Of a stretch of 17,616 bases of DNA, positions 10,226 to 17,616 are shown piece after piece; position 1 is the first letter of the stretch, and the number at the start of each line of letters is the position of its first letter. The position numbers were made by a program, and so were the translations under genes. Source of the DNA: a virus. Taxonomy: Duplodnaviria > Heunggongvirae > Uroviricota > Caudoviricetes. Location of the stretch: the IMG/VR virus record IMGVR_UViG_2713896768_000001, positions 1 through 17,616 of that record; one strand, 5' to 3'. The notes beneath the pieces are model-generated. The model was not told the DNA's origin. It saw only the letters and a program-made list of their open reading frames with translations, and did no database searches.

Positions 10226-11290
10226 ATGTCTCTTAACTGGATGCGCCATTTTGAGTTGCAGCTGTTGGACCAGAACGGGCAGGGTATTTCCCTGTCTGAT
10301 TTTAAGGTCACGTTCCAGATCGAGTGGGCAGATACACGCTGGCCGCGCGTGGCAAACGTGAAAATTTACAACCTTTCGACCGATACCACGAACAAGATAC
10401 TGGGGCAGGAGTTTGCAAAAATTCGCATCATTGCCGGGTATGACGGTATTGCGCCGGATGTTGATGCGAGCCAGGTTGGTGTCGCCCGGGAGATTTCACC
10501 AGACCAGGTAGGGCAGGTGAACGGTCAGAACTACGGCCTGATATTTGACGGTGATATTCGCTTCACCGTCACCGGGAAGGACAACATCACCGATTCCTGG
10601 GTGCTGATTCAGGCCATCAGTAACCACGAAGCGTTCCTCTACGCGACTACCATCACCACGCTTGCCGCTGGCTATACCGTTGCGGATCTGCACCGGGCGA
10701 CGATGCAGGATTTCAACGCGTTCGGCGTGACACAGGGCATTACCGGCGATTTTCCTGATACCGTGTTTCCTCGTGGCCGCGCGATTTACTCATCCAGCCG
10801 CAACGTGATGGATAATATTGCTGCGCAGTGCAAAGCGACATGGCAACTGGTGGATGGTCAGGTCCAGATGGTGCCGGAGGATAAATATATTCACGAAGCC
10901 ATTGTGTTGAATGCCAATACTGGCCTGATCGGTATGCCGCAACAAACGATGGGCGGCGGAGTAAACGTGCGGTGCCTGATAAACCCAAACATCCGTATTA
11001 ATGGTCTTATCCAGCTCGATCAGGCTTCGGTGTACCGCGCCGCGCTCGGCAATAGCGAAATCGCACAGTCGCCCGGGCGTATCACTGAAACGGAAGAGAA
11101 CGGCAACCGCGCACTGACCGGCACAACGTCACAGGCTGCCAGCATTGCGACAGATGGCGTTTATATCGTCAAAGCTATCGACTATACTGGCGACACCAGA
11201 GGTCAGGCGTGGTACATGGATTTGATGTGTTTTGCGCGTGGTGCTCGTGAAATGGTTAGTCAGGACACGCTTAAAAAATGGCAGGTATAA
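10226..11290 (+). CDS. Baseplate hub protein (P2 gpD / Mu gp44-like)
   Basis: 354-aa ORF with an AGGAG RBS. Size and position after tape measure and before the spike gene match the hub of P2/Mu-type baseplates. Confidence 0.55.
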   Translation: MSLNWMRHFELQLLDQNGQGISLSDFKVTFQIEWADTRWPRVANVKIYNLSTDTTNKILGQEFAKIRIIAGYDGIAPDVDASQVGVAREISPDQVGQVNGQNYGLIFDGDIRFTVTGKDNITDSWVLIQAISNHEAFLYATTITTLAAGYTVADLHRATMQDFNAFGVTQGITGDFPDTVFPRGRAIYSSSRNVMDNIAAQCKATWQLVDGQVQMVPEDKYIHEAIVLNANTGLIGMPQQTMGGGVNVRCLINPNIRINGLIQLDQASVYRAALGNSEIAQSPGRITETEENGNRALTGTTSQAASIATDGVYIVKAIDYTGDTRGQAWYMDLMCFARGAREMVSQDTLKKWQV

Positions 11291-11291
11291 G

Positions 11292-11642
11292 ATGGGTAAG
11301 GCCAAACTTCTAATTTGTGGTGTTCTTTTATCAGTTGTCGGCACGTCAGAGGCCTTAGCTGATACTCAGTGCGGGCCGTATCGCCTCACTGCGGGCAAAG
11401 AAGGACTAATGCTTATTAACGGGGTAAAACCTGAAACGCAAAAAATGTCTTTTCTCAAGTCTAAAGATGACTACCAAAACATGAAAGCAGAATGGATGGT
11501 TGCAACCGACCAACCCGGCCGCTGGGTTGGGCTTGAGTACATCAAGCGCAACGGCAAAGCCATTCTCAACGCACAGTGGTTGCAAGCCAGCATGGATTCG
11601 CCGCGTCAGTATGCAACATACGACTGCGTGAAGGTGAAATGA
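11292..11642 (+). CDS. Small exported protein with Sec signal peptide (accessory moron gene; function unknown)
   Basis: ATG at 11292, 2 nt after the hub stop, with an AGGT RBS. N-terminus MGKAKLLICGVLLSVVGTSEALA|DTQCG… has a basic n-region, hydrophobic core and A-L-A signal peptidase I site, with no lipobox. The mature protein is about 94 aa with two Cys. By eye it is AT-richer than flanking tail genes and it interrupts the conserved hub-spike adjacency. Confidence 0.55.
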   Translation: MGKAKLLICGVLLSVVGTSEALADTQCGPYRLTAGKEGLMLINGVKPETQKMSFLKSKDDYQNMKAEWMVATDQPGRWVGLEYIKRNGKAILNAQWLQASMDSPRQYATYDCVKVK

Positions 11643-11659
11643 TGATCCGCATCCTTAAA

Positions 11660-11724
11660 CATCAATAATCGTTGATCTCGCGTTTTTATTATGCACTAAT
11701 CTGTACATGTACAGAGAGGGTGCC
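11660..11724 (+). promoter_or_regulatory. Putative promoter/operator of the toxin-antitoxin operon, including a perfect 14-bp palindrome CTGTACATGTACAG (11701-11714) and a GAGAGGG Shine-Dalgarno
   Basis: 82-nt AT-rich intergenic region. The palindrome was checked by reverse complement and abuts the RBS. A weak sigma70-like pair is possible (TTGATC at 11672-11677, ACTAAT at 11695-11700, 17-nt spacer). Palindromic operators bound by Phd/YefM antitoxins are established for this family. Confidence 0.45.
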
Positions 11725-12138
11725 ATGAAAATCATTACTTACACGCAAATGCGATCGGATTTATCTGCAACGCTGGACTGTTTACGCTCTGGTGAAAGCG
11801 TCACAGTTACGCAGCGCGGAAAGCCCGACCTTGTCATCAGTGCAAAATCAGTTGATGAAATCGCTTCCGCAGATGAGGTAAAAACATCTGCGAAAACAAT
11901 AGACACGCATCTTGCGCAATTAATTGCATCGAATTTGTCACCACAGATAACGGAGGGTGTCATGAAGCTTACTAAGCAATTGGATGCCCTTCTTCAGTCT
12001 GATGAGGCTCGCCAGACTATGATGAAGGCCACTAATGCAGCAGTTGCTTTGCAGGGCGTGTCTGAGTCATTTATCAAAGCTCTGCAACATACTCAGACCA
12101 AGCATGCGGACATCATAAAAAAACTGGAAGATAAGTAA
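11725..12138 (+). CDS. Phd/YefM-family antitoxin with an extended helical C-terminal domain (137 aa; typical Phd/YefM is about 75-90 aa)
   Basis: N-terminus MKIITYTQMRSDLSATLDCLRSGESVTVTQRGKPDLVISAKS matches the YefM/Phd N-terminal fold (compare remembered YefM [41 protein letters not shown]). The ATG at 11725 with a GAGGG SD is preferred over the track start at 11707, which lies inside the palindrome. The stop overlaps the toxin start (TAATG). Confidence 0.7.
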   Translation: MKIITYTQMRSDLSATLDCLRSGESVTVTQRGKPDLVISAKSVDEIASADEVKTSAKTIDTHLAQLIASNLSPQITEGVMKLTKQLDALLQSDEARQTMMKATNAAVALQGVSESFIKALQHTQTKHADIIKKLEDK

Positions 12139-12545
12139 TGACTGAGATTACATTCCTTTCGGTAGATGAGGTCATCGCTATTCAGAAGAGCACATTGCCA
12201 AATAGCGGACAACCAGACCGGGGAAAACTCGAAGGTGCCCTCAATCGCGTCGATAACTTACGCATGTATGAAGGATGTGAGGATTTATTTAAATTTGCAG
12301 CTATGTACATGGTTGCGATAGCGAAGTCTCACGCTTTTAATGACGCCAATAAGCGAACGGCTTTCCAGGCCGCCAGCGTGTTTTTGCTTTTGAATGGCTA
12401 TGAACTGAATACCTCAATGGAGTTAGTCAAGCTGACCATCTTTGCTGCTACGGGAGAGGCCGACTGCGATAACACTGCTTTGGCGCTTAAACTTTTGTCA
12501 GATTATAAGAATGAGCTGCTGGCAGATACGATAACTGGCTACTGA
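12138..12545 (+). CDS. doc: Doc (death-on-curing) / Fic-family toxin
   Basis: 135-aa ORF translationally coupled to the antitoxin. It contains the Doc signature H-x-F-x-D-A-N-K-R (SHAFNDANKRTAFQAASVFLLLNGY, codons at about 12330-12356), compared with remembered P1 Doc …GHIFNDANKRTALNSALLFLRRNG…. Confidence 0.8.
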   Translation: MTEITFLSVDEVIAIQKSTLPNSGQPDRGKLEGALNRVDNLRMYEGCEDLFKFAAMYMVAIAKSHAFNDANKRTAFQAASVFLLLNGYELNTSMELVKLTIFAATGEADCDNTALALKLLSDYKNELLADTITGY

Positions 12546-12567
12546 TAGCAAAAAGTAAATTGTACAC

Positions 12568-12592
12568 AACCCGCCGCCGAGCGGGTTTTTTT
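12568..12592 (+). terminator. Rho-independent terminator (stem ACCCGC / GCGGGT, loop CGCCGA, followed by a T7 run)
   Basis: Read directly: aacccgc-cgccga-gcgggtttttttat, 23 nt after the toxin stop and just before the RBS of the spike gene at 12604. Confidence 0.65.
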
Positions 12593-12603
12593 ATGGAGTT
12601 TTT

Positions 12604-13344
12604 ATGCCAATTCCAACTCAATCACAGATCGGCGGCGAGCAGCAGACCGCGCAGGCCATAGCCGATTCGGTGTCTACCCAGATGCGCGTAGCGATGCCAG
12701 GCATCATTCAGTCGTTCGATCCTGACGCTGTAACCTGCACAGTAGAAGTGGCGCTTCGCGGTATTGTTGGCGACGGCTCCACCGAATTAAAACCGCTGGT
12801 GGATGTTCCTGTCATCTTCCCGCGCGGCGGCGGCTGCACGCTGACCTTTCCGGTTAAAGAAGGCGACGAGTGCCTGCTGCTCTTTGCCGACCGTTGCATC
12901 GATTTCTGGTGGCAGAGCGGCGGCGTGCAGGAGACCGTCGACCCGCGCCAGCATGACTTATCTGATGCGTTCGCCATCGTTGGCCCACAGTCGCAAGCAC
13001 GGAAAATCAGCGGTATCAGTACCAGCGCCGCGCAGCTGCGAACCGATGATGGTGCGGCGTTTGTAGAAGTCGCCGCAGGACATAACATCACCATTAAAAC
13101 ACCGGGCCAGCTTACAGCTACGGCTGAAGGTGGAACGACAATCACATCCCCGACTATCACGCTGAACGGCAACGTAACGATTAATGGCAACTTGTCTCAG
13201 GGAATGGGCGAAAGCGGCGGTACTGCGACGATGCTTGGGCCGGTGACGGTAACGAATGACGTAACAGCTTCTGGTATCAGTGTCGCCACGCATAAACATG
13301 GCGGAGTACAGACTGGCGGGGGAACTACCGGAGGGCCGCAATAA
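12604..13344 (+). CDS. Baseplate central spike protein (P2 gpV / Mu gp45-like) with C-terminal beta-helix and His-x-His tip
   Basis: 246-aa ORF with a GGAG RBS. The C-terminal region is Gly/Thr-rich and repetitive (…TITSPTITLNGNVTINGNLSQG…) and ends …VATHKHGGVQTGGGTTGGPQ (HKH at 13291-13299), matching the iron-binding apex motif known for spike proteins. Confidence 0.6.
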   Translation: MPIPTQSQIGGEQQTAQAIADSVSTQMRVAMPGIIQSFDPDAVTCTVEVALRGIVGDGSTELKPLVDVPVIFPRGGGCTLTFPVKEGDECLLLFADRCIDFWWQSGGVQETVDPRQHDLSDAFAIVGPQSQARKISGISTSAAQLRTDDGAAFVEVAAGHNITIKTPGQLTATAEGGTTITSPTITLNGNVTINGNLSQGMGESGGTATMLGPVTVTNDVTASGISVATHKHGGVQTGGGTTGGPQ

Positions 13345-14897: not shown

Positions 14898-15574
14898 GCA
14901 AATACACCGAACTGATCACTAACTACCACGCTACCAAGCCACTCTTTTTTGACCATATAGATCTGAGCACCCGCCCGCTGATTGATGTGTCCAGCACTAT
15001 GTCAGGGCTTATAACAGCCTTCGATATCGATACTGCTGTCGGTGTACAGCTCGACATCCTCGGTCTGTGGATCGGACGCAGTCGCATAGTCAGCCAGCCA
15101 ATTAGCGGAGTTTATTTCAGCTGGGACACTGACGGGCTTGGGTATGACCAGGGCATCTGGCAAGGGCCATATGATCCTGATTCTGGCTATACGACGCTAA
15201 GCGATGAGACGTACCGCATCATTCTGAAAGCGAAAATCGCTATCAACAACTGGGACGGTCGGAACGACTCTCTGCCTCCCATCCTTGACGCTGCTACCGC
15301 AGGCTCAGGCCTGAGGATGCAGATCGTCGACAACCAGGACATGACGATTTCGGTCTGGGTTTCCCCTGAAACTGATATTTCTGATGTGTCTCTCGAACTG
15401 ATCGCCGCTATCAAACAGGGCTATCTCACCGTTAAATCAGCTGGCGTATGGGCCGGTGATGTTGAAACGCCTTCGGTAGAAACACCGTCAGAAGGCTCTA
15501 AATTCTTTGGGTTTGATATGGATAACGAATACATCGGCGGGTTCGATGTTGGAGCATGGGGGACAATACTCTAA
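14894..15574 (+). CDS. Baseplate/tail protein (P2 gpI / Mu gp48-like, DUF2612-type)
   Basis: 226-aa ORF with ATGA overlap to the J-like gene; positioned immediately upstream of the tail fibre gene. Confidence 0.5.
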   Translation: MSKYTELITNYHATKPLFFDHIDLSTRPLIDVSSTMSGLITAFDIDTAVGVQLDILGLWIGRSRIVSQPISGVYFSWDTDGLGYDQGIWQGPYDPDSGYTTLSDETYRIILKAKIAINNWDGRNDSLPPILDAATAGSGLRMQIVDNQDMTISVWVSPETDISDVSLELIAAIKQGYLTVKSAGVWAGDVETPSVETPSEGSKFFGFDMDNEYIGGFDVGAWGTIL

Positions 15575-16515
15575 TGGCAATAAACAACTTTAAACCTTTC
15601 GCGCTTGATCCGAACGCTAACGTCACCTCACAAGCTGACTGGGAAGCACTTCCGGCTCTGCTTTCAGGGTTTACGGCAGGTAAAGCATCCAGCGCACAGG
15701 TCAACAAAGCCATTCGACAGGCCAGCTTTATTGCGGCAGCGCTTGCGCAGTACACAGCCAACAAAAGTGGGCTGGACGTGCTTGATGATGGTGACCTGAA
15801 CGGCTTTATCTCCAAAATGGGAACCGCTTTCGGGAAGGATTTCCAGGCACTTGATGCCACGCTGACGGCATTGGCAGGGCTCGCAACAGGTGAAAATAAA
15901 CTCCCGTATTTCACTGGAAATGATACAGCAGCGCAGACTGATTTAACTTCTGTCGGCCGCGACATTATTGGTAAAAGCACTATTGCTGACATTCTCACAT
16001 ACCTTGGTTTGGGAGAAGGCTCTGCATTACCTGTCGGTGTGCCTGTTCCGTGGCCTTCCGCCACTCCGCCGACAGGCTGGCTAAAATGCAATGGTGCGGC
16101 TTTTTCTGCTGAAGAATACCCGGAACTGGCAAAGGCTTACCCGACAAATAAATTGCCTGATTTACGCGGTGAATTTATTCGTGGCTGGGATGATGGGCGT
16201 AGTGCGGATGCGGGGAGAACAATATTATCCGCTCAGGGCGATGCCATACGTAATATCTATGGTGAGTTCAAGACTGTAAACACCGAAAATTATTCAATAT
16301 GGGAAGTAGCAAGCTCGTTTAAGGGAGCAGTGGTGCCTTTGAGTCCCTCTACAAACAATAGTTATTTCTCCTTAACCAGAAGTATGGTGACAGAAAGGTC
16401 CGAGGGCGGTGTTTACCCAAAAGTGATTGGCCTTGATGCTTCAAGAATTGTTCCAACTGCAAACGAAAATCGACCCCGTAACATTGCCTTTAATTATATC
16501 GTGAGGGCTGCCTGA
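15574..16515 (+). CDS. Tail fibre protein with C-terminal phage tail-collar domain; the C-terminal about 170 aa lie inside the invertible segment
   Basis: The ATG at 15574 overlaps the upstream stop (TAATG); the track start at 15556 is 6 codons upstream in the same frame. The collar-type motif …PVGVPVPWPSATPPTGWLKCNGAAFSAEEYPELAKAYPTNKLPDLRGEFIRGWDDGR… and the ending …RPRNIAFNYIVRAA are typical. A hix/gix-like site sits at codons around Tyr-Leu-Gly-Leu-Gly-Glu. Confidence 0.7.
   Translation: MAINNFKPFALDPNANVTSQADWEALPALLSGFTAGKASSAQVNKAIRQASFIAAALAQYTANKSGLDVLDDGDLNGFISKMGTAFGKDFQALDATLTALAGLATGENKLPYFTGNDTAAQTDLTSVGRDIIGKSTIADILTYLGLGEGSALPVGVPVPWPSATPPTGWLKCNGAAFSAEEYPELAKAYPTNKLPDLRGEFIRGWDDGRSADAGRTILSAQGDAIRNIYGEFKTVNTENYSIWEVASSFKGAVVPLSPSTNNSYFSLTRSMVTERSEGGVYPKVIGLDASRIVPTANENRPRNIAFNYIVRAA
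15992..16017. other. Left crossover site for a Gin/Hin/Pin-family DNA invertase: TTCTCACATACC-TT-GGTTTGGGAGAA
   Basis: Two 12-bp half-sites in inverted orientation (10/12 matching) around a 2-bp core, with 17/26 identity to the remembered gix site TTCCTGTAAACCGAGGTTTTGGATAA. An inverted copy appears at the window end, and a visible composition change begins near here. Confidence 0.6.
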
Positions 16516-17120
16516 TGGATAAAGCTATATTAAATAAGGAACTCATCGCCACAAAGGCGGGAGATATTACCGTTTATAATTATGATGGTGAAACACGAGA
16601 ATATATTTCCACATCAACCGAATATCTTGCTGTGGGTGTCGGTATCCCGGCATGTTCCTGTTTAGATGCTCCTGGCTCATATAAAGCTGGTTATGCAATT
16701 TGCCGTTCTGCAGATTTTAACTCATGGGAATATGTGCCAGACCATCGCGGTGAAATCGTCTATAGCACCGAAACAGGAGAATCAAAAGAAATCACAGCTC
16801 CGGGTGATTACCCTGAAAAGACAACCACTATCGCCCCGTTAACGCCATACGATAAATGGGATGGTGAGAAATGGGTGACGGATACCGAGGCACAGCATAG
16901 AGCAGCAGTAGACATGGCAGAAACACAGCGGCAGTCGCTGATTGATGCTGCAATGGTTTCCATTAGTCTGATTCAACTGAAATTGCAGGCCGGGCGGAAG
17001 CTGACGCAGGCAGAAAACACCCGACTTAACGCCGTGCTGGATTACACTGACGCGGTGATGGCAACAGATACCAGCACCGCGTCAGATGTCATCTGGCCAG
17101 TTCCTCCTGAGACGGTTTAA
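16515..17120 (+). CDS. tfa: Tail fibre assembly protein (Tfa)
   Basis: 201-aa ORF whose start overlaps the fibre stop (TGATG). The C-terminus …LNAVLDYTDAVMATDTSTASDVIWPVPPETV matches the conserved Tfa C-terminal pattern seen in lambda/P2/Mu-type assembly chaperones. Confidence 0.7.
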   Translation: MDKAILNKELIATKAGDITVYNYDGETREYISTSTEYLAVGVGIPACSCLDAPGSYKAGYAICRSADFNSWEYVPDHRGEIVYSTETGESKEITAPGDYPEKTTTIAPLTPYDKWDGEKWVTDTEAQHRAAVDMAETQRQSLIDAAMVSISLIQLKLQAGRKLTQAENTRLNAVLDYTDAVMATDTSTASDVIWPVPPETV

Positions 17121-17376
17121 TCTCAATCAGAATGGGTTCTCCCTTCTCGTTAACAGATATTTCCATTCCTTCAGGGATTTCAGATGCAGTAAAAAACCAG
17201 TTATCTTCTGGTAATTCAACAGCCCCGGTCACGTCATGAAGACCGGGGATTACTTCAGTCAAAGTAACAGGATTAAACAGGCGCACAATAAACCCTCCAG
17301 GAAAAAGCACTTGTTGATGGTGTTCCGTCGTACATCTGGCAGCGGACATAAAAACCGGTATTAGTGACCTGGTCAT
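17089..17376 (-). CDS. Minus-strand ORF downstream of the alternative fibre domain: possible short tfa' or frame-disrupted remnant
   Basis: 95-aa track ORF, but its first 34 codons overlap the Sv' reading frame and no convincing RBS/start follows the Sv' stop. Its 3' end overlaps the + strand tfa by 32 nt. It ends …EIKPSQEELAR. Coding status is uncertain. Confidence 0.25.
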   Translation of the reverse strand: MTRSLIPVFMSAARCTTEHHQQVLFPGGFIVRLFNPVTLTEVIPGLHDVTGAVELPEDNWFFTASEIPEGMEISVNEKGEPILIEIKPSQEELAR

Positions 17377-17616
17377 CCACGATCATTGAAACGTGAACGT
17401 TATTAGATGTGCCCCCATAATCCGTTCCTATTCTTTCCGCTATGCTGATAAAACGTGAAAGCTTAGGTAGCGCAATTGGATAAACGACTTTAGCCAGTCC
17501 ATTATCATTAGAACCCCCCGTTCCAAAGACTTCTATTGCACCATCTGACCAGCGTATCCACGCACCATTGGCATTAGCTCCTCGCTGAATGACATATCTG
17601 GCTTCTCCCAAACCAA
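17273..17616 (-). CDS. Alternative tail fibre C-terminal variable domain (Sv'-like), 5'-partial: open to the window edge, silent in this orientation
   Basis: The - strand frame is open from the window end to the stop at 17273-17275. The track start is a TTG, and the reading frame continues through the crossover site in the same frame as the fibre constant region. Confidence 0.5.
   Translation of the reverse strand, partial: GLGEARYVIQRGANANGAWIRWSDGAIEVFGTGGSNDNGLAKVVYPIALPKLSRFISIAERIGTDYGGTSNNVHVSMIVDDQVTNTGFYVRCQMYDGTPSTSAFSWRVYCAPV
17603..17616. other. Right crossover site for the invertase, truncated by the window end (TTCTCCCAAACC-AA…)
   Basis: The last 14 nt of the window are the exact reverse complement of 16004-16017 (TTGGTTTGGGAGAA), i.e. 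the first half-site plus core of an inverted copy of the left site. The rest would lie beyond the window. Confidence 0.55.

What the first reader, a model, noticed from the sequence alone, without database searches (positions are those of the whole stretch)
12138..12545. Doc/Fic-family toxin embedded in the phage tail operon
The Doc signature HxFxDANKR is intact (SHAFNDANKRTA) and the gene is translationally coupled to the antitoxin by a TAATG overlap, indicating a functional module. Inside a late operon it would be transcribed from its own promoter during lysogeny, while the terminator at 12568-12592 may attenuate late transcription into the spike gene.
Basis: partly seen in the sequence, partly recalled or inferred. 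Interest (0 to 1): 0.55.

Follow-up and report, generated by a model that had tools for sequence, protein, structure and literature searches.

The report
Phd–Doc toxin–antitoxin cassette in prophage
This is an intact but ordinary Phd–Doc toxin–antitoxin gene pair, already annotated in public genomes, carried as a self-contained passenger cassette in a variable cargo slot of a lambda-like prophage's tail genes.

Summary
ORF 12138-12545 encodes a 135-aa Doc toxin (TIGR01550, 81 bits; 41% identical to P1 Doc). Its catalytic motif H-A-F-N-D-A-N-K-R aligns to the P1 motif. It overlaps the upstream antitoxin gene (11725-12138) through TAATG. The identical proteins are already annotated as Phd/Doc in RefSeq E. 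coli prophages.

New details:
- The antitoxin is a 137-aa "long Phd": a Phd DNA-binding domain, a roughly 65-aa linker/helical insert, and a conserved C-terminal neutralising helix.
- A 12-bp palindrome, TGTACATGTACA, sits just 5' of the ribosome-binding site in 21 of 22 relatives, whatever their genomic context. It is the likely operator.
- The cassette (about 11650-12600) is a discrete mobile unit. It is 84-96% identical to a Serratia prophage copy while the flanks are 50-74% identical. Doc dN/dS is 0.02-0.05.
- The slot before the spike gene is a cargo hotspot, with about 40 ORF families including PD-Lambda-1, YafO and HEPN.
- The terminator is real but belongs to the phage backbone. It is present in cargo-free relatives and shows compensatory stem changes.
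- The phage encodes a Q antiterminator, so the terminator most likely insulates late genes in the lysogen rather than attenuating late transcription.

Novelty is low.

The parts
10226..11290 (+). Baseplate hub gene (phage backbone, left of the slot)
   Evidence: PHROG 196 baseplate hub, 1.2e-84. Weak Pfam E217_GP41 match.
11292..11642 (+). 116-aa small protein with an N-terminal signal-peptide-like segment (phrog_3443). Its stop codon is the left border of the variable cargo slot.
   Evidence: PHROG 3443, 9.4e-46. Conserved next to the slot in relatives. GC 46-49%.
11643..11724 (+). 5' control region of the cassette. It holds a conserved '-10-like' block (TATGCACTAAT, 11690-11700), a tentative -35 (TTGATC, 11672-11677), the operator palindrome, and a Shine-Dalgarno sequence (AGAGGG, 11715-11720).
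   Evidence: Conserved with the cassette in unrelated contexts. Nucleotide identity to the Serratia/IMG-VR copies jumps from 50-74% to 88-96% at about 11650. There is no hit in the consensus promoter scan, so the promoter assignment is inferred.
11701..11714 (.). Perfect 14-bp palindrome CTGTACATGTACAG (core: two tandem TGTACA, 11702-11713). Probable Phd operator.
   Evidence: The TGTACA pair is present directly 5' of the SD in 21 of 22 cassette copies. P1 has GTAC-core palindromes in the same place relative to its -10 and SD.
11725..12138 (+). 137-aa 'long Phd' antitoxin. It has a Phd/YefM DNA-binding domain (1-45), a disordered linker and helical insert (about 46-112), and a conserved C-terminal helix (114-136).
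   Evidence: 36% identity to P1 Phd over residues 1-45. Pfam PF02604 28.5 bits, just under the 29.8 cut-off. AF2 model and Foldseek top hits are P1 Phd/YefM. In the family alignment the C-terminus aligns to the Doc-binding helix of P1 Phd. The identical protein is WP_001515093.1, annotated as a Phd/YefM antitoxin.
12138..12545 (+). 135-aa Doc (death-on-curing) toxin
   Evidence: Identical protein is WP_001515094.1. dN/dS 0.02-0.05.
12327..12362 (+). Catalytic motif SHAFNDANKRTA (H65, D69, K72, R73)
   Evidence: Aligned to P1 Doc H66IFNDANKR.
12568..12594 (+). Intrinsic terminator (AACCCGC-CGCCGA-GCGGGTT plus T7), 16 nt before the spike ATG. It is a backbone element and forms the right border of the slot.
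   Evidence: Present in 52 of 55 distinct relatives with a gap of at least 60 nt, including cargo-free ones. In the 41 sequences aligned for the pair count, 94% of cells are paired, 4 of 7 pairs have double changes, and 0 of 500 shuffles reach the observed values.
12604..13344 (+). Tail spike / baseplate V gene (backbone, right of the slot)
   Evidence: Pfam phage spike N-terminal domain (2.6e-41) and GpV Apex motif.

Best explanation
A functional, self-contained phd-doc type II toxin-antitoxin cassette (a 'moron') occupies the variable cargo slot between the hub/p116 genes and the spike gene of a lambdoid, Q-regulated, contractile-tailed prophage.

Mechanism, inferred from family membership:
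- Doc is a Fic-fold kinase that phosphorylates EF-Tu and stops translation.
- It is held inactive by the C-terminal helix of the 137-aa Phd-type antitoxin.
- Antitoxin dimers (with Doc as co-repressor) bind the tandem TGTACA palindrome between the promoter and the ribosome-binding site, so the operon represses itself.
- The genes are translationally coupled through TAATG.

In the lysogen the cassette is transcribed on its own, and the transcript ends at the backbone terminator 16 nt before the spike gene. During lytic growth, Q-modified RNA polymerase reads through both the cassette and the terminator.

When antitoxin synthesis stops, the labile antitoxin decays and Doc arrests the cell. That could follow prophage loss or host shut-off by an infecting phage. 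Because of the company the cassette keeps in this slot, I favour an abortive-infection/defence benefit to the lysogen, with post-curing killing as the alternative.

Shown: the identity of both proteins, the intact motif, the coupling, purifying selection, the cassette boundaries and mobility, the conserved palindrome, the conserved terminator, and the Q gene in a near-identical prophage. Inferred: kinase activity and its target, operator binding, the promoter, lysogenic expression, read-through, and the biological role.
For: - Doc identity and motif.
- Antitoxin N-domain: sequence, model and fold search.
- The invariant C-terminal residues F116, A119, L120, T123, H127 and I130 have the same i, +3, +4, +7, +11, +14 spacing as the Doc-binding hot spots F56, I59, M60, H63, L67 and L70 of Salmonella Phd (PMC9207808).
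- Purifying selection.
- Discrete cassette: 84-96% identity inside about 11650-12600 versus 50-74% in the flanks. GC is 44-47% versus 52-60%.
- The same cassette sits in other phage locations, such as next to holin/endolysin-like lysis genes and between the tape-measure and Dit genes of another myovirus.
- The palindrome is invariant in 21 of 22 copies. The P1 layout is analogous.
- The slot holds about 40 ORF families. They include PD-Lambda-1 (276 bits), PDC-S42, a YafO toxin, a HEPN protein, and a canonical 74-aa Phd plus Doc in two Yersinia genomes.
- Some slot cargo is on the minus strand, so it must have its own promoters.
- Terminator conservation and covariation.
- Q antiterminator in the collinear ABWA45 prophage.
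Against: - No sigma-70 consensus hit in the 83-nt upstream spacer. My candidate hexamers are weak and their spacing is not conserved across relatives.
- The antitoxin scores just under the curated Pfam and NCBIfam cut-offs and matches no PHROG or sequenced phage.
- The function of its roughly 65-aa insert is unknown and it is modelled with low confidence.
- None of my three topical literature searches turned up evidence that Phd-Doc defends against phages. The PADLOC matches of Doc are only weak hits to candidate families.
- A terminator kept even in cargo-free relatives is not fully explained by an insulation role.
- The Q gene was seen in a 90-96% identical relative, not in the window itself.
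Confidence: 0.85

Rival explanations
1. Main role is prophage addiction ('death on curing'). Cells that lose the prophage by excision or deletion are arrested by the longer-lived Doc, as in plasmid prophage P1. The cassette stabilises the prophage rather than defending against other phages.
For: This is the founding function of the family in P1 (established knowledge; P1 doc is the closest solved relative). The cassette is found only on prophage or viral contigs: 6 of 5426 complete E. coli genomes, all chromosomal prophage sites for the copies inspected, and no plasmid hits.
Against: An integrated prophage is lost far more rarely than a plasmid, so the selective gain is small. The neighbouring cargo in the same slot includes validated or candidate anti-phage genes. 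The two roles are not exclusive.
Confidence: 0.3
2. A purely selfish mobile cassette. It persists because it is hard to lose and moves between phage hotspots, with no benefit to phage or host.
For: It has spread into several different phage positions and backbones. It is rare: 6 of 5426 E. coli genomes.
Against: Very strong purifying selection on Doc across deep divergence. Control elements are strictly conserved. This fits maintained activity but cannot separate selfish from beneficial maintenance.
Confidence: 0.15
3. The terminator attenuates late transcription so that the spike, baseplate and fibre genes are made in lower amounts than the upstream tail genes.
For: The terminator is conserved with compensatory changes even where no cargo needs insulating. 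No room for a promoter exists in the 16 nt before the spike ATG, so spike transcription must pass through it.
Against: A Q-family antiterminator is encoded just upstream of the lysis genes in the collinear prophage. By established knowledge of lambda, Q-modified polymerase ignores intrinsic terminators. The feature is independent of the Doc module.
Confidence: 0.2
4. The module is a decaying remnant: an inactive toxin or an orphan antitoxin.
For: Some relatives show decay. L019 keeps only the C-terminal part of the antitoxin and a single TGTACA.
Against: In the window both ORFs are full length, the motif is intact, dN/dS is 0.02-0.17, and the exact antitoxin sequence occurs on 506 contigs.
Confidence: 0.03

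Closest known systems
Phd-Doc of bacteriophage P1 (PDB 3k33, 3dd7, 3kh2; Phd-operator complex 4zm0)
   Same: Doc fold family and an identical catalytic motif xHxFNDANKRTA. The antitoxin N-terminal DNA-binding domain matches: 36% identity over 45 aa, Foldseek rmsd 2.1 A over 43 columns. The phenylalanine-led C-terminal helix aligns to the Doc-binding helix. Gene order and the TAATG overlap are the same. GTAC-core palindromes lie between the -10 and the SD. Both are phage-borne.
   Different: Only 41% identity for Doc. The antitoxin is 137 aa instead of 73 aa, with a roughly 65-aa linker/helical insert. The operator is two abutting TGTACA sites rather than two separated GTGTACAC-type sites. It lies in an integrated lambdoid prophage's late operon, not on a plasmid prophage. 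There is no experimental data.
Phd-Doc of Salmonella Typhimurium (PMC9207808)
   Same: Doc kinase acting on EF-Tu and neutralised by the Phd C-terminal helix. The hot-spot spacing F56/I59/M60/H63/L67/L70 matches the invariant F116/A119/L120/T123/H127/I130 here.
   Different: That system is reported to have a 73-aa Phd. The residues at four of the six hot-spot positions differ (A, T, H and I in place of I, H, L and L), so cross-neutralisation is not expected.
Lambdoid 'morons' (promoter-gene-terminator units inserted in late operons, as described for HK97/HK022; my own knowledge)
   Same: An autonomous unit between two late genes. It has lower GC than its flanks, its own control region, and a terminator at its 3' end. 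The phage uses Q antitermination.
   Different: Here the terminator belongs to the backbone and predates the cargo. Cargo appears to be swapped in between the upstream gene and a resident terminator.
Defence hotspots of P2-like phages and P4-like satellites (PMC9122126)
   Same: A fixed position in a prophage with conserved flanks and highly variable cargo that includes anti-phage systems.
   Different: A different phage lineage and position: hub/p116 to spike in a lambdoid myovirus. Defence activity of most cargo here, including Phd-Doc, is untested.
Fic AMP-transferases (HxFx[D/E]GNGRxxR)
   Same: Same Pfam family PF02661.
   Different: The motif has A-N-K-R in place of G-N-G-R, the Doc-type variant associated with kinase rather than AMPylation chemistry (established knowledge). 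It is a small single-domain protein.

Membership tests
Doc (death-on-curing) toxins, TIGR01550 / Fic superfamily PF02661 | Sequence passes the curated family models | tested here: met
   TIGR01550 81.3 bits (cut-off 38.65). PF02661 45.4 bits (cut-off 24). PHROG 577 Doc-like toxin 1.5e-33.
Doc (death-on-curing) toxins, TIGR01550 / Fic superfamily PF02661 | Doc-type active-site motif HxFx(D/E)(A/G)NKR, with Lys where AMPylating Fic proteins have Gly | tested here: met
   H65-A-F-N-D-A-N-K72-R73 aligns column for column with P1 Doc H66-I-F-N-D-A-N-K73-R74.
Doc (death-on-curing) toxins, TIGR01550 / Fic superfamily PF02661 | Phosphorylates EF-Tu and arrests translation; toxic when expressed alone | not testable with these tools
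   Inferred from homology only. Needs expression and phospho-EF-Tu assays.
Type II toxin-antitoxin operon (phd-doc type) | Antitoxin gene immediately upstream, same strand, overlapping or abutting the toxin gene | tested here: met
   TAA 12136-12138 overlaps ATG 12138-12140. The pairing is kept in all 22 related loci.
Phd/YefM antitoxins (PF02604, TIGR01552) | N-terminal Phd/YefM DNA-binding fold | tested here: inconclusive
   The scores fall just below the curated cut-offs: PF02604 28.5 vs 29.8, TIGR01552 20.2 vs 20.8. Other evidence supports the fold. BLASTP to P1 Phd gives 36% over 45 aa, pairwise E 8e-9. The AF2 model has beta-alpha-alpha-beta-beta with pLDDT 83-90. All top Foldseek PDB hits are Phd/YefM-type, with best E 1.8e-3. 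The precomputed database annotation lists PF02604. I accept membership for the N-domain. Only about half of the Pfam profile is matched.
Phd/YefM antitoxins (PF02604, TIGR01552) | C-terminal segment that folds onto Doc and neutralises it | tested here: inconclusive
   The conserved C-terminal helix 114-136 (pLDDT about 78) aligns with the P1 Phd 55-73 helix. It has hot-spot-like spacing. Binding was not tested and no complex model could be made.
Type II toxin-antitoxin operon (phd-doc type) | Autoregulation through a palindromic operator overlapping the promoter | tested here: inconclusive
   The invariant TGTACATGTACA lies 5' of the SD in 21 of 22 copies and the layout is analogous to P1. The promoter is not detected by the consensus scan. 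Binding is untested.
Phage 'moron' (autonomous accessory unit in a late operon) | Discrete insertion between conserved late genes, absent from close relatives, with atypical composition | tested here: met
   Relatives carry other cargo or none at the same site. There is an identity step at about 11650 and about 12600. GC drops to 44-47%.
Phage 'moron' (autonomous accessory unit in a late operon) | Expressed from its own promoter in the lysogen and ended by a terminator | not testable with these tools
   The terminator is present and conserved. Lysogenic transcription needs RNA data.
Known anti-phage defence systems (PADLOC-DB v2) | Significant match to a model of a validated defence system | tested here: not met
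   Doc gives only weak hits to candidate families: PDC-M59B 1.9e-6, PDC-S23, PDC-S04. The antitoxin gives none.

The most novel reading that the evidence does not exclude
The terminator-anchored slot before the spike gene is an undescribed defence/cargo hotspot of a widespread clade of lambdoid contractile-tailed prophages in Enterobacterales. The long-Phd/Doc cassette in it is an abortive-infection system. In this reading the roughly 65-aa insert of the antitoxin, absent from canonical Phd, acts as the sensor or degron that releases Doc when another phage infects.
Probability: 0.12. Interest if true: 0.6.

Novelty: new member of a known kind. Interest (0 to 1): 0.25.

Why it matters
As a toxin-antitoxin pair it adds little, because the identical proteins are already named Phd/Doc in RefSeq. 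Three by-products are modestly useful.
- An uncharacterised long-antitoxin branch of Phd-Doc with a sharply defined operator (TGTACATGTACA). It could be used to test how antitoxin architecture affects regulation.
- A precisely bounded cargo slot in a common prophage type. It runs from the stop of the hub/p116 gene to a resident terminator. It already contains PD-Lambda-1, a YafO toxin, a HEPN protein and many unknown genes, so it could be mined for new defence genes.
- A clean example in which the 'moron terminator' is a backbone element that predates the cargo. This suggests that accessory genes with their own promoters are tolerated where a terminator already protects downstream late genes.

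Tried and rejected
- The consensus promoter scan of 11000-13000 found nothing in the spacer upstream of the antitoxin. The only hit was 11160-11188, upstream of p116. My manual -35/-10 assignments (TTGATC-17-ACTAAT with an upstream TG, or TATTAT at 11687) do not keep spacing across relatives and remain tentative.
- The hairpin energy z-score is not significant on a 52-nt piece (-1.15). The covariation count was used instead.
- Extra TGTACA sites inside doc (12304) and after it (12561) looked like secondary operators, since 4 of the window's 7 sites lie in the cassette. They are not conserved in relatives, so this idea was rejected.
- Rfam found no RNA family in the window.
- The antitoxin had no PHROG match, no PADLOC match and no tblastn match in 50,697 phage records.
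- The cassette had no match in PLSDB plasmids.
- A literature search for the RefSeq accessions gave no papers. Three topical literature searches turned up nothing specific to this subfamily or to an anti-phage role for Phd-Doc.
- An inverted-repeat search for an invertible tail-fibre segment at 15400-17616 found none inside the window.
- A complex model of toxin plus antitoxin could not be made with the single-chain tool. A Doc structure model was not run because the sequence match to solved P1 Doc was already decisive.
Full report
**1. The observation**

The + strand ORF 12138-12545 (ATG to TGA) encodes 135 aa. Residues 64-75 read SHAFNDANKRTA (nt 12327-12362).

- The protein passes the curated thresholds of TIGR01550 'death-on-curing family toxin' (81.3 bits against 38.65) and Pfam Fic/DOC (45.4 against 24).
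- It matches PHROG 577 'Doc-like toxin', which PHROGs files under morons.
- Against solved structures the best hit is P1 Doc (3k33, E 7e-20, residues 7-119 on 4-120). H65-A-F-N-D-A-N-K-R lies exactly on P1 H66-I-F-N-D-A-N-K-R.
- The antitoxin stop TAA (12136-12138) and the doc ATG (12138-12140) share one base. P1 phd/doc has the same TAATG junction.
- The terminator-like hairpin at 12568-12587 plus a T-run is found by the scan.
- The neighbours are tail and baseplate genes: Dit-like, plug, hub, spike with GpV apex motif, and Baseplate_J.

**2. The antitoxin**

The real start is ATG 11725, preceded by AGAGGG, giving 137 aa. That is nearly twice the length of P1 Phd (73 aa).

- Residues 1-45 are 36% identical to the DNA-binding domain of P1 Phd (phmmer to PDB E about 0.015).
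- The curated Pfam and NCBIfam scores fall just under their cut-offs (28.5 vs 29.8; 20.2 vs 20.8).
- An AlphaFold model built on 19 homologues gives a confident beta-alpha-alpha-beta-beta N-domain (pLDDT 83-90). It then shows a disordered linker (45-57, pLDDT below 50), three low-confidence helices (56-110), and a better-defined C-terminal helix (114-136, about 78).
- The best Foldseek PDB matches are all Phd/YefM antitoxins, with P1 Phd first.
- In an alignment of the family with P1 Phd, the highly conserved tail SFIKALQHTQTKHADIIKKLEDK aligns with the Doc-binding helix of Phd.
- The invariant residues F116, A119, L120, T123, H127 and I130 have the same spacing as the hot spots F56, I59, M60, H63, L67 and L70 mapped experimentally in Salmonella Phd (PMC9207808).

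So the antitoxin is a Phd with an inserted linker/helical segment of about 65 residues between its two functional ends. The role of the insert is unknown.

**3. Already annotated**

The identical proteins are WP_001515093.1 and WP_001515094.1. RefSeq names them Phd/YefM antitoxin and death-on-curing toxin in E. coli ECONIH5 and ABWA45, at the same position of the same prophage.

- The exact antitoxin sequence occurs on 506 contigs of Enterobacteriaceae.
- The cassette is rare. It is in 6 of 5426 complete E. coli genomes, always chromosomal, and absent from 72,556 plasmids.
- Among deposited phage genomes, Doc's best matches are 43% identity or less, mostly P1-like phages. The antitoxin has no match there.

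**4. A discrete, mobile cassette under selection**

- Compared with a Serratia prophage and an IMG/VR contig (L097, L011), nucleotide identity is 84-96% between about 11650 and 12600. It is only 50-74% in the flanking hub, p116 and spike genes.
- In protein terms, Doc is 94% identical to the L011 copy while the hub is 54% and the spike is 69%. Other diverged copies (L002, L012) give Doc 94%, hub 54% and spike 51-52%.
- GC falls to 44-47% against 52-60% in the flanks.
- dN/dS is 0.02-0.05 for doc and 0.12-0.17 for the antitoxin.
- More distant copies (59-84% Doc identity) sit in other phage locations. Several are followed by holin/endolysin-like lysis genes. One type lies between the tape-measure and Dit genes of a different myovirus. 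One lies in front of an 879-aa ORF that looks like a tape measure. The lysis-gene and tape-measure readings come from ORF beginnings only, not from family searches.

**5. Control region**

The consensus promoter scan finds nothing in the 83-nt spacer. However, extracting the 110 nt upstream of the antitoxin ATG from 14 distinct cassette copies shows a clear pattern. Everything diverges except a block that ends in TGTACATGTACA (window 11702-11713; CTGTACATGTACAG in most copies) and lies directly 5' of the Shine-Dalgarno sequence.

- The TGTACA pair is present in 21 of 22 loci. The exception, L019, has lost the antitoxin's DNA-binding domain.
- P1 has the same layout: TATAAT, then GTAC-core palindromes (TGTGTACACA and GAGTACAC), then the SD.

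I therefore read the palindrome as the Phd operator and place the promoter just upstream of it or overlapping it. The exact -35 and -10 hexamers remain tentative. Two further TGTACA sites in the window's cassette are not conserved and are probably incidental.

**6. The slot**

In close E. coli relatives the stretch between the stop of the 116-aa gene (phrog_3443) and the spike gene holds other cargo. Examples are a minus-strand DUF4236 gene, a 53-aa ORF, or, in Citrobacter phage Omnitron, a secreted 128-aa protein.

Across 78 species-representative genomes found with the spike protein, the distance from hub/p116 to the spike ranges from 3 nt to 2.8 kb. The 45 occupied slots (including the window and the viral-contig copies) contain about 40 ORF families. 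Among the ten representatives scanned were:
- a PD-Lambda-1 homologue (276 bits)
- a PDC-S42 candidate
- a YafO toxin
- a HEPN protein
- a Mu-F-like protein

Two Yersinia genomes carry a canonical 74-aa Phd plus a 124-aa Doc that is only 41-42% identical to this one. Phd-Doc has therefore entered this slot at least twice. Several cargo genes are on the opposite strand, so they must be independently transcribed.

**7. The terminator**

A GC-rich hairpin followed by a T-run lies 15-23 nt upstream of the spike ATG in 52 of 55 distinct relatives whose intergenic gap is at least 60 nt.

- This includes relatives where the gap of 66-121 nt holds nothing but the hairpin, for example L102, L104, L119, L150 and L158.
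- It is absent where the hub and spike genes abut, as in the more distant Photorhabdus/Xenorhabdus group.
- On a 41-sequence alignment, 94% of cells pair. Four of the seven stem pairs show changes on both sides (CCCGC/GCGGG, CCTGC/GCAGG, GCCGC/GCGGC, CCAGC/GCTGG). No shuffle out of 500 reaches the observed values, and all slid registers collapse to 35-55% pairing.

The terminator is thus a selected backbone element and the right-hand border of the slot. It was not brought in by the toxin module.

**8. Late regulation**

The ABWA45 prophage is collinear with the window at 90-96% identity. It is lambdoid, with CI/Cro/CII, a nin region and a lambda-family holin. Its 'antitermination protein' in front of the holin matches Pfam Antitermination protein Q at 192 bits.

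By established knowledge of lambda, Q-modified RNA polymerase reads through intrinsic terminators. Only 16 nt separate the hairpin from the spike ATG, so the spike must be transcribed through it. The most economical reading has two parts:
- In lytic growth the terminator is overridden.
- In the lysogen it stops transcripts that start at cargo promoters before they reach the spike, baseplate and fibre genes.

This is the classical moron arrangement, with one twist: the terminator is resident. I cannot exclude partial attenuation. Its conservation in cargo-free phages remains incompletely explained.

**9. How it most likely works**

Doc-family toxins are Fic-fold kinases that phosphorylate EF-Tu and block translation (established knowledge; EF-Tu phosphorylation by Salmonella Doc is shown in PMC9207808). 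Phd neutralises Doc with its C-terminal helix and represses the operon at palindromic operators, and in P1 it is proteolytically labile. All sequence features needed for that scheme are present here.

The biological pay-off is not shown. Because of the defence-type neighbours in the slot, I favour abortive infection when an incoming phage shuts down host expression. Post-curing killing and selfish persistence are the alternatives. The literature searches I ran returned no direct evidence for an anti-phage role of Phd-Doc.

**10. Verdict**

The finding is real and correctly identified, but ordinary. It is a new, uncharacterised member of the Phd-Doc family with a long antitoxin, sitting as a moron in a prophage cargo hotspot, and it is already annotated in RefSeq. 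Those on the terminator need revising.

Noticed in passing
window 11643-12594, and the equivalent gap in L003-L006 and L088-L167: The interval between the hub/p116 gene and the spike gene is a cargo hotspot. The gap ranges from 3 nt to 2.8 kb, with about 40 ORF families in 45 occupied loci. They include PD-Lambda-1, PDC-S42, a YafO toxin with an upstream partner, a HEPN protein with an upstream 250-263-aa partner, DUF4236, a Mu-F-like protein and several secreted proteins. Most have no family match.
   Followed up: partly
L102, L104, L107, L119, L122, L126, L149, L150, L152, L154, L155, L158, L164 (about 3940-4000 in each): Relatives with no cargo still keep the hairpin plus T-run between the hub (or p116) and spike genes. 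Why a Q-regulated late operon conserves an internal intrinsic terminator without anything to insulate is unexplained.
   Followed up: partly
window 11292-11642; promoter-like site 11160-11188: The 116-aa protein (phrog_3443) has a signal-peptide-like N-terminus (MGKAKLLICGVLLSVVGTSEALA) and low GC. It is missing from many relatives where the hub abuts the spike or the terminator. The only sigma-70 consensus hit in the region lies about 100 nt upstream of it, inside the hub gene. It may itself be an accessory, lysogen-expressed gene.
   Followed up: no
L151 218-810 and L161 about 3100-3700 (Yersinia similis, Y. aldovae): A canonical 74-aa Phd plus a 124-aa Doc, only 41-42% identical to the window's Doc, occupies the same slot. 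This is an independent acquisition of the same toxin family.
   Followed up: partly
L019 4777-5414: This cassette copy has an antitoxin ORF of only 75 aa. It keeps the C-terminal neutralising segment but lacks the Phd DNA-binding domain, and only one TGTACA remains upstream.
   Followed up: no
L168 19894-31719 and L001 1-7998; insertion point corresponds to window about 1072-1091: In E. coli ABWA45 and ECONIH5 a P4-like element is inserted between the DUF2213 head gene and the cement-protein gene of this prophage. It carries integrases, an Icd-like protein and a TOPRIM/DUF927 primase. The window lacks the insertion.
   Followed up: no
window 15556-17616; L001 24375-27310: The tail-fibre end has fibre and assembly genes on both strands. 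In relatives an adjacent serine recombinase gene is present, suggesting an invertible host-range segment. No inverted repeat was found inside the window, and the right end is cut off.
   Followed up: partly
L004 and L006, just after the p116 stop (about 3445-3480 and 3286-3320): A minus-strand terminator-like hairpin (GCGCCGGTCAACCCGGCGC plus T-run on the minus strand) closes the minus-strand cargo gene next to p116. Slot cargo of either orientation therefore appears to be bracketed by terminators.
   Followed up: no
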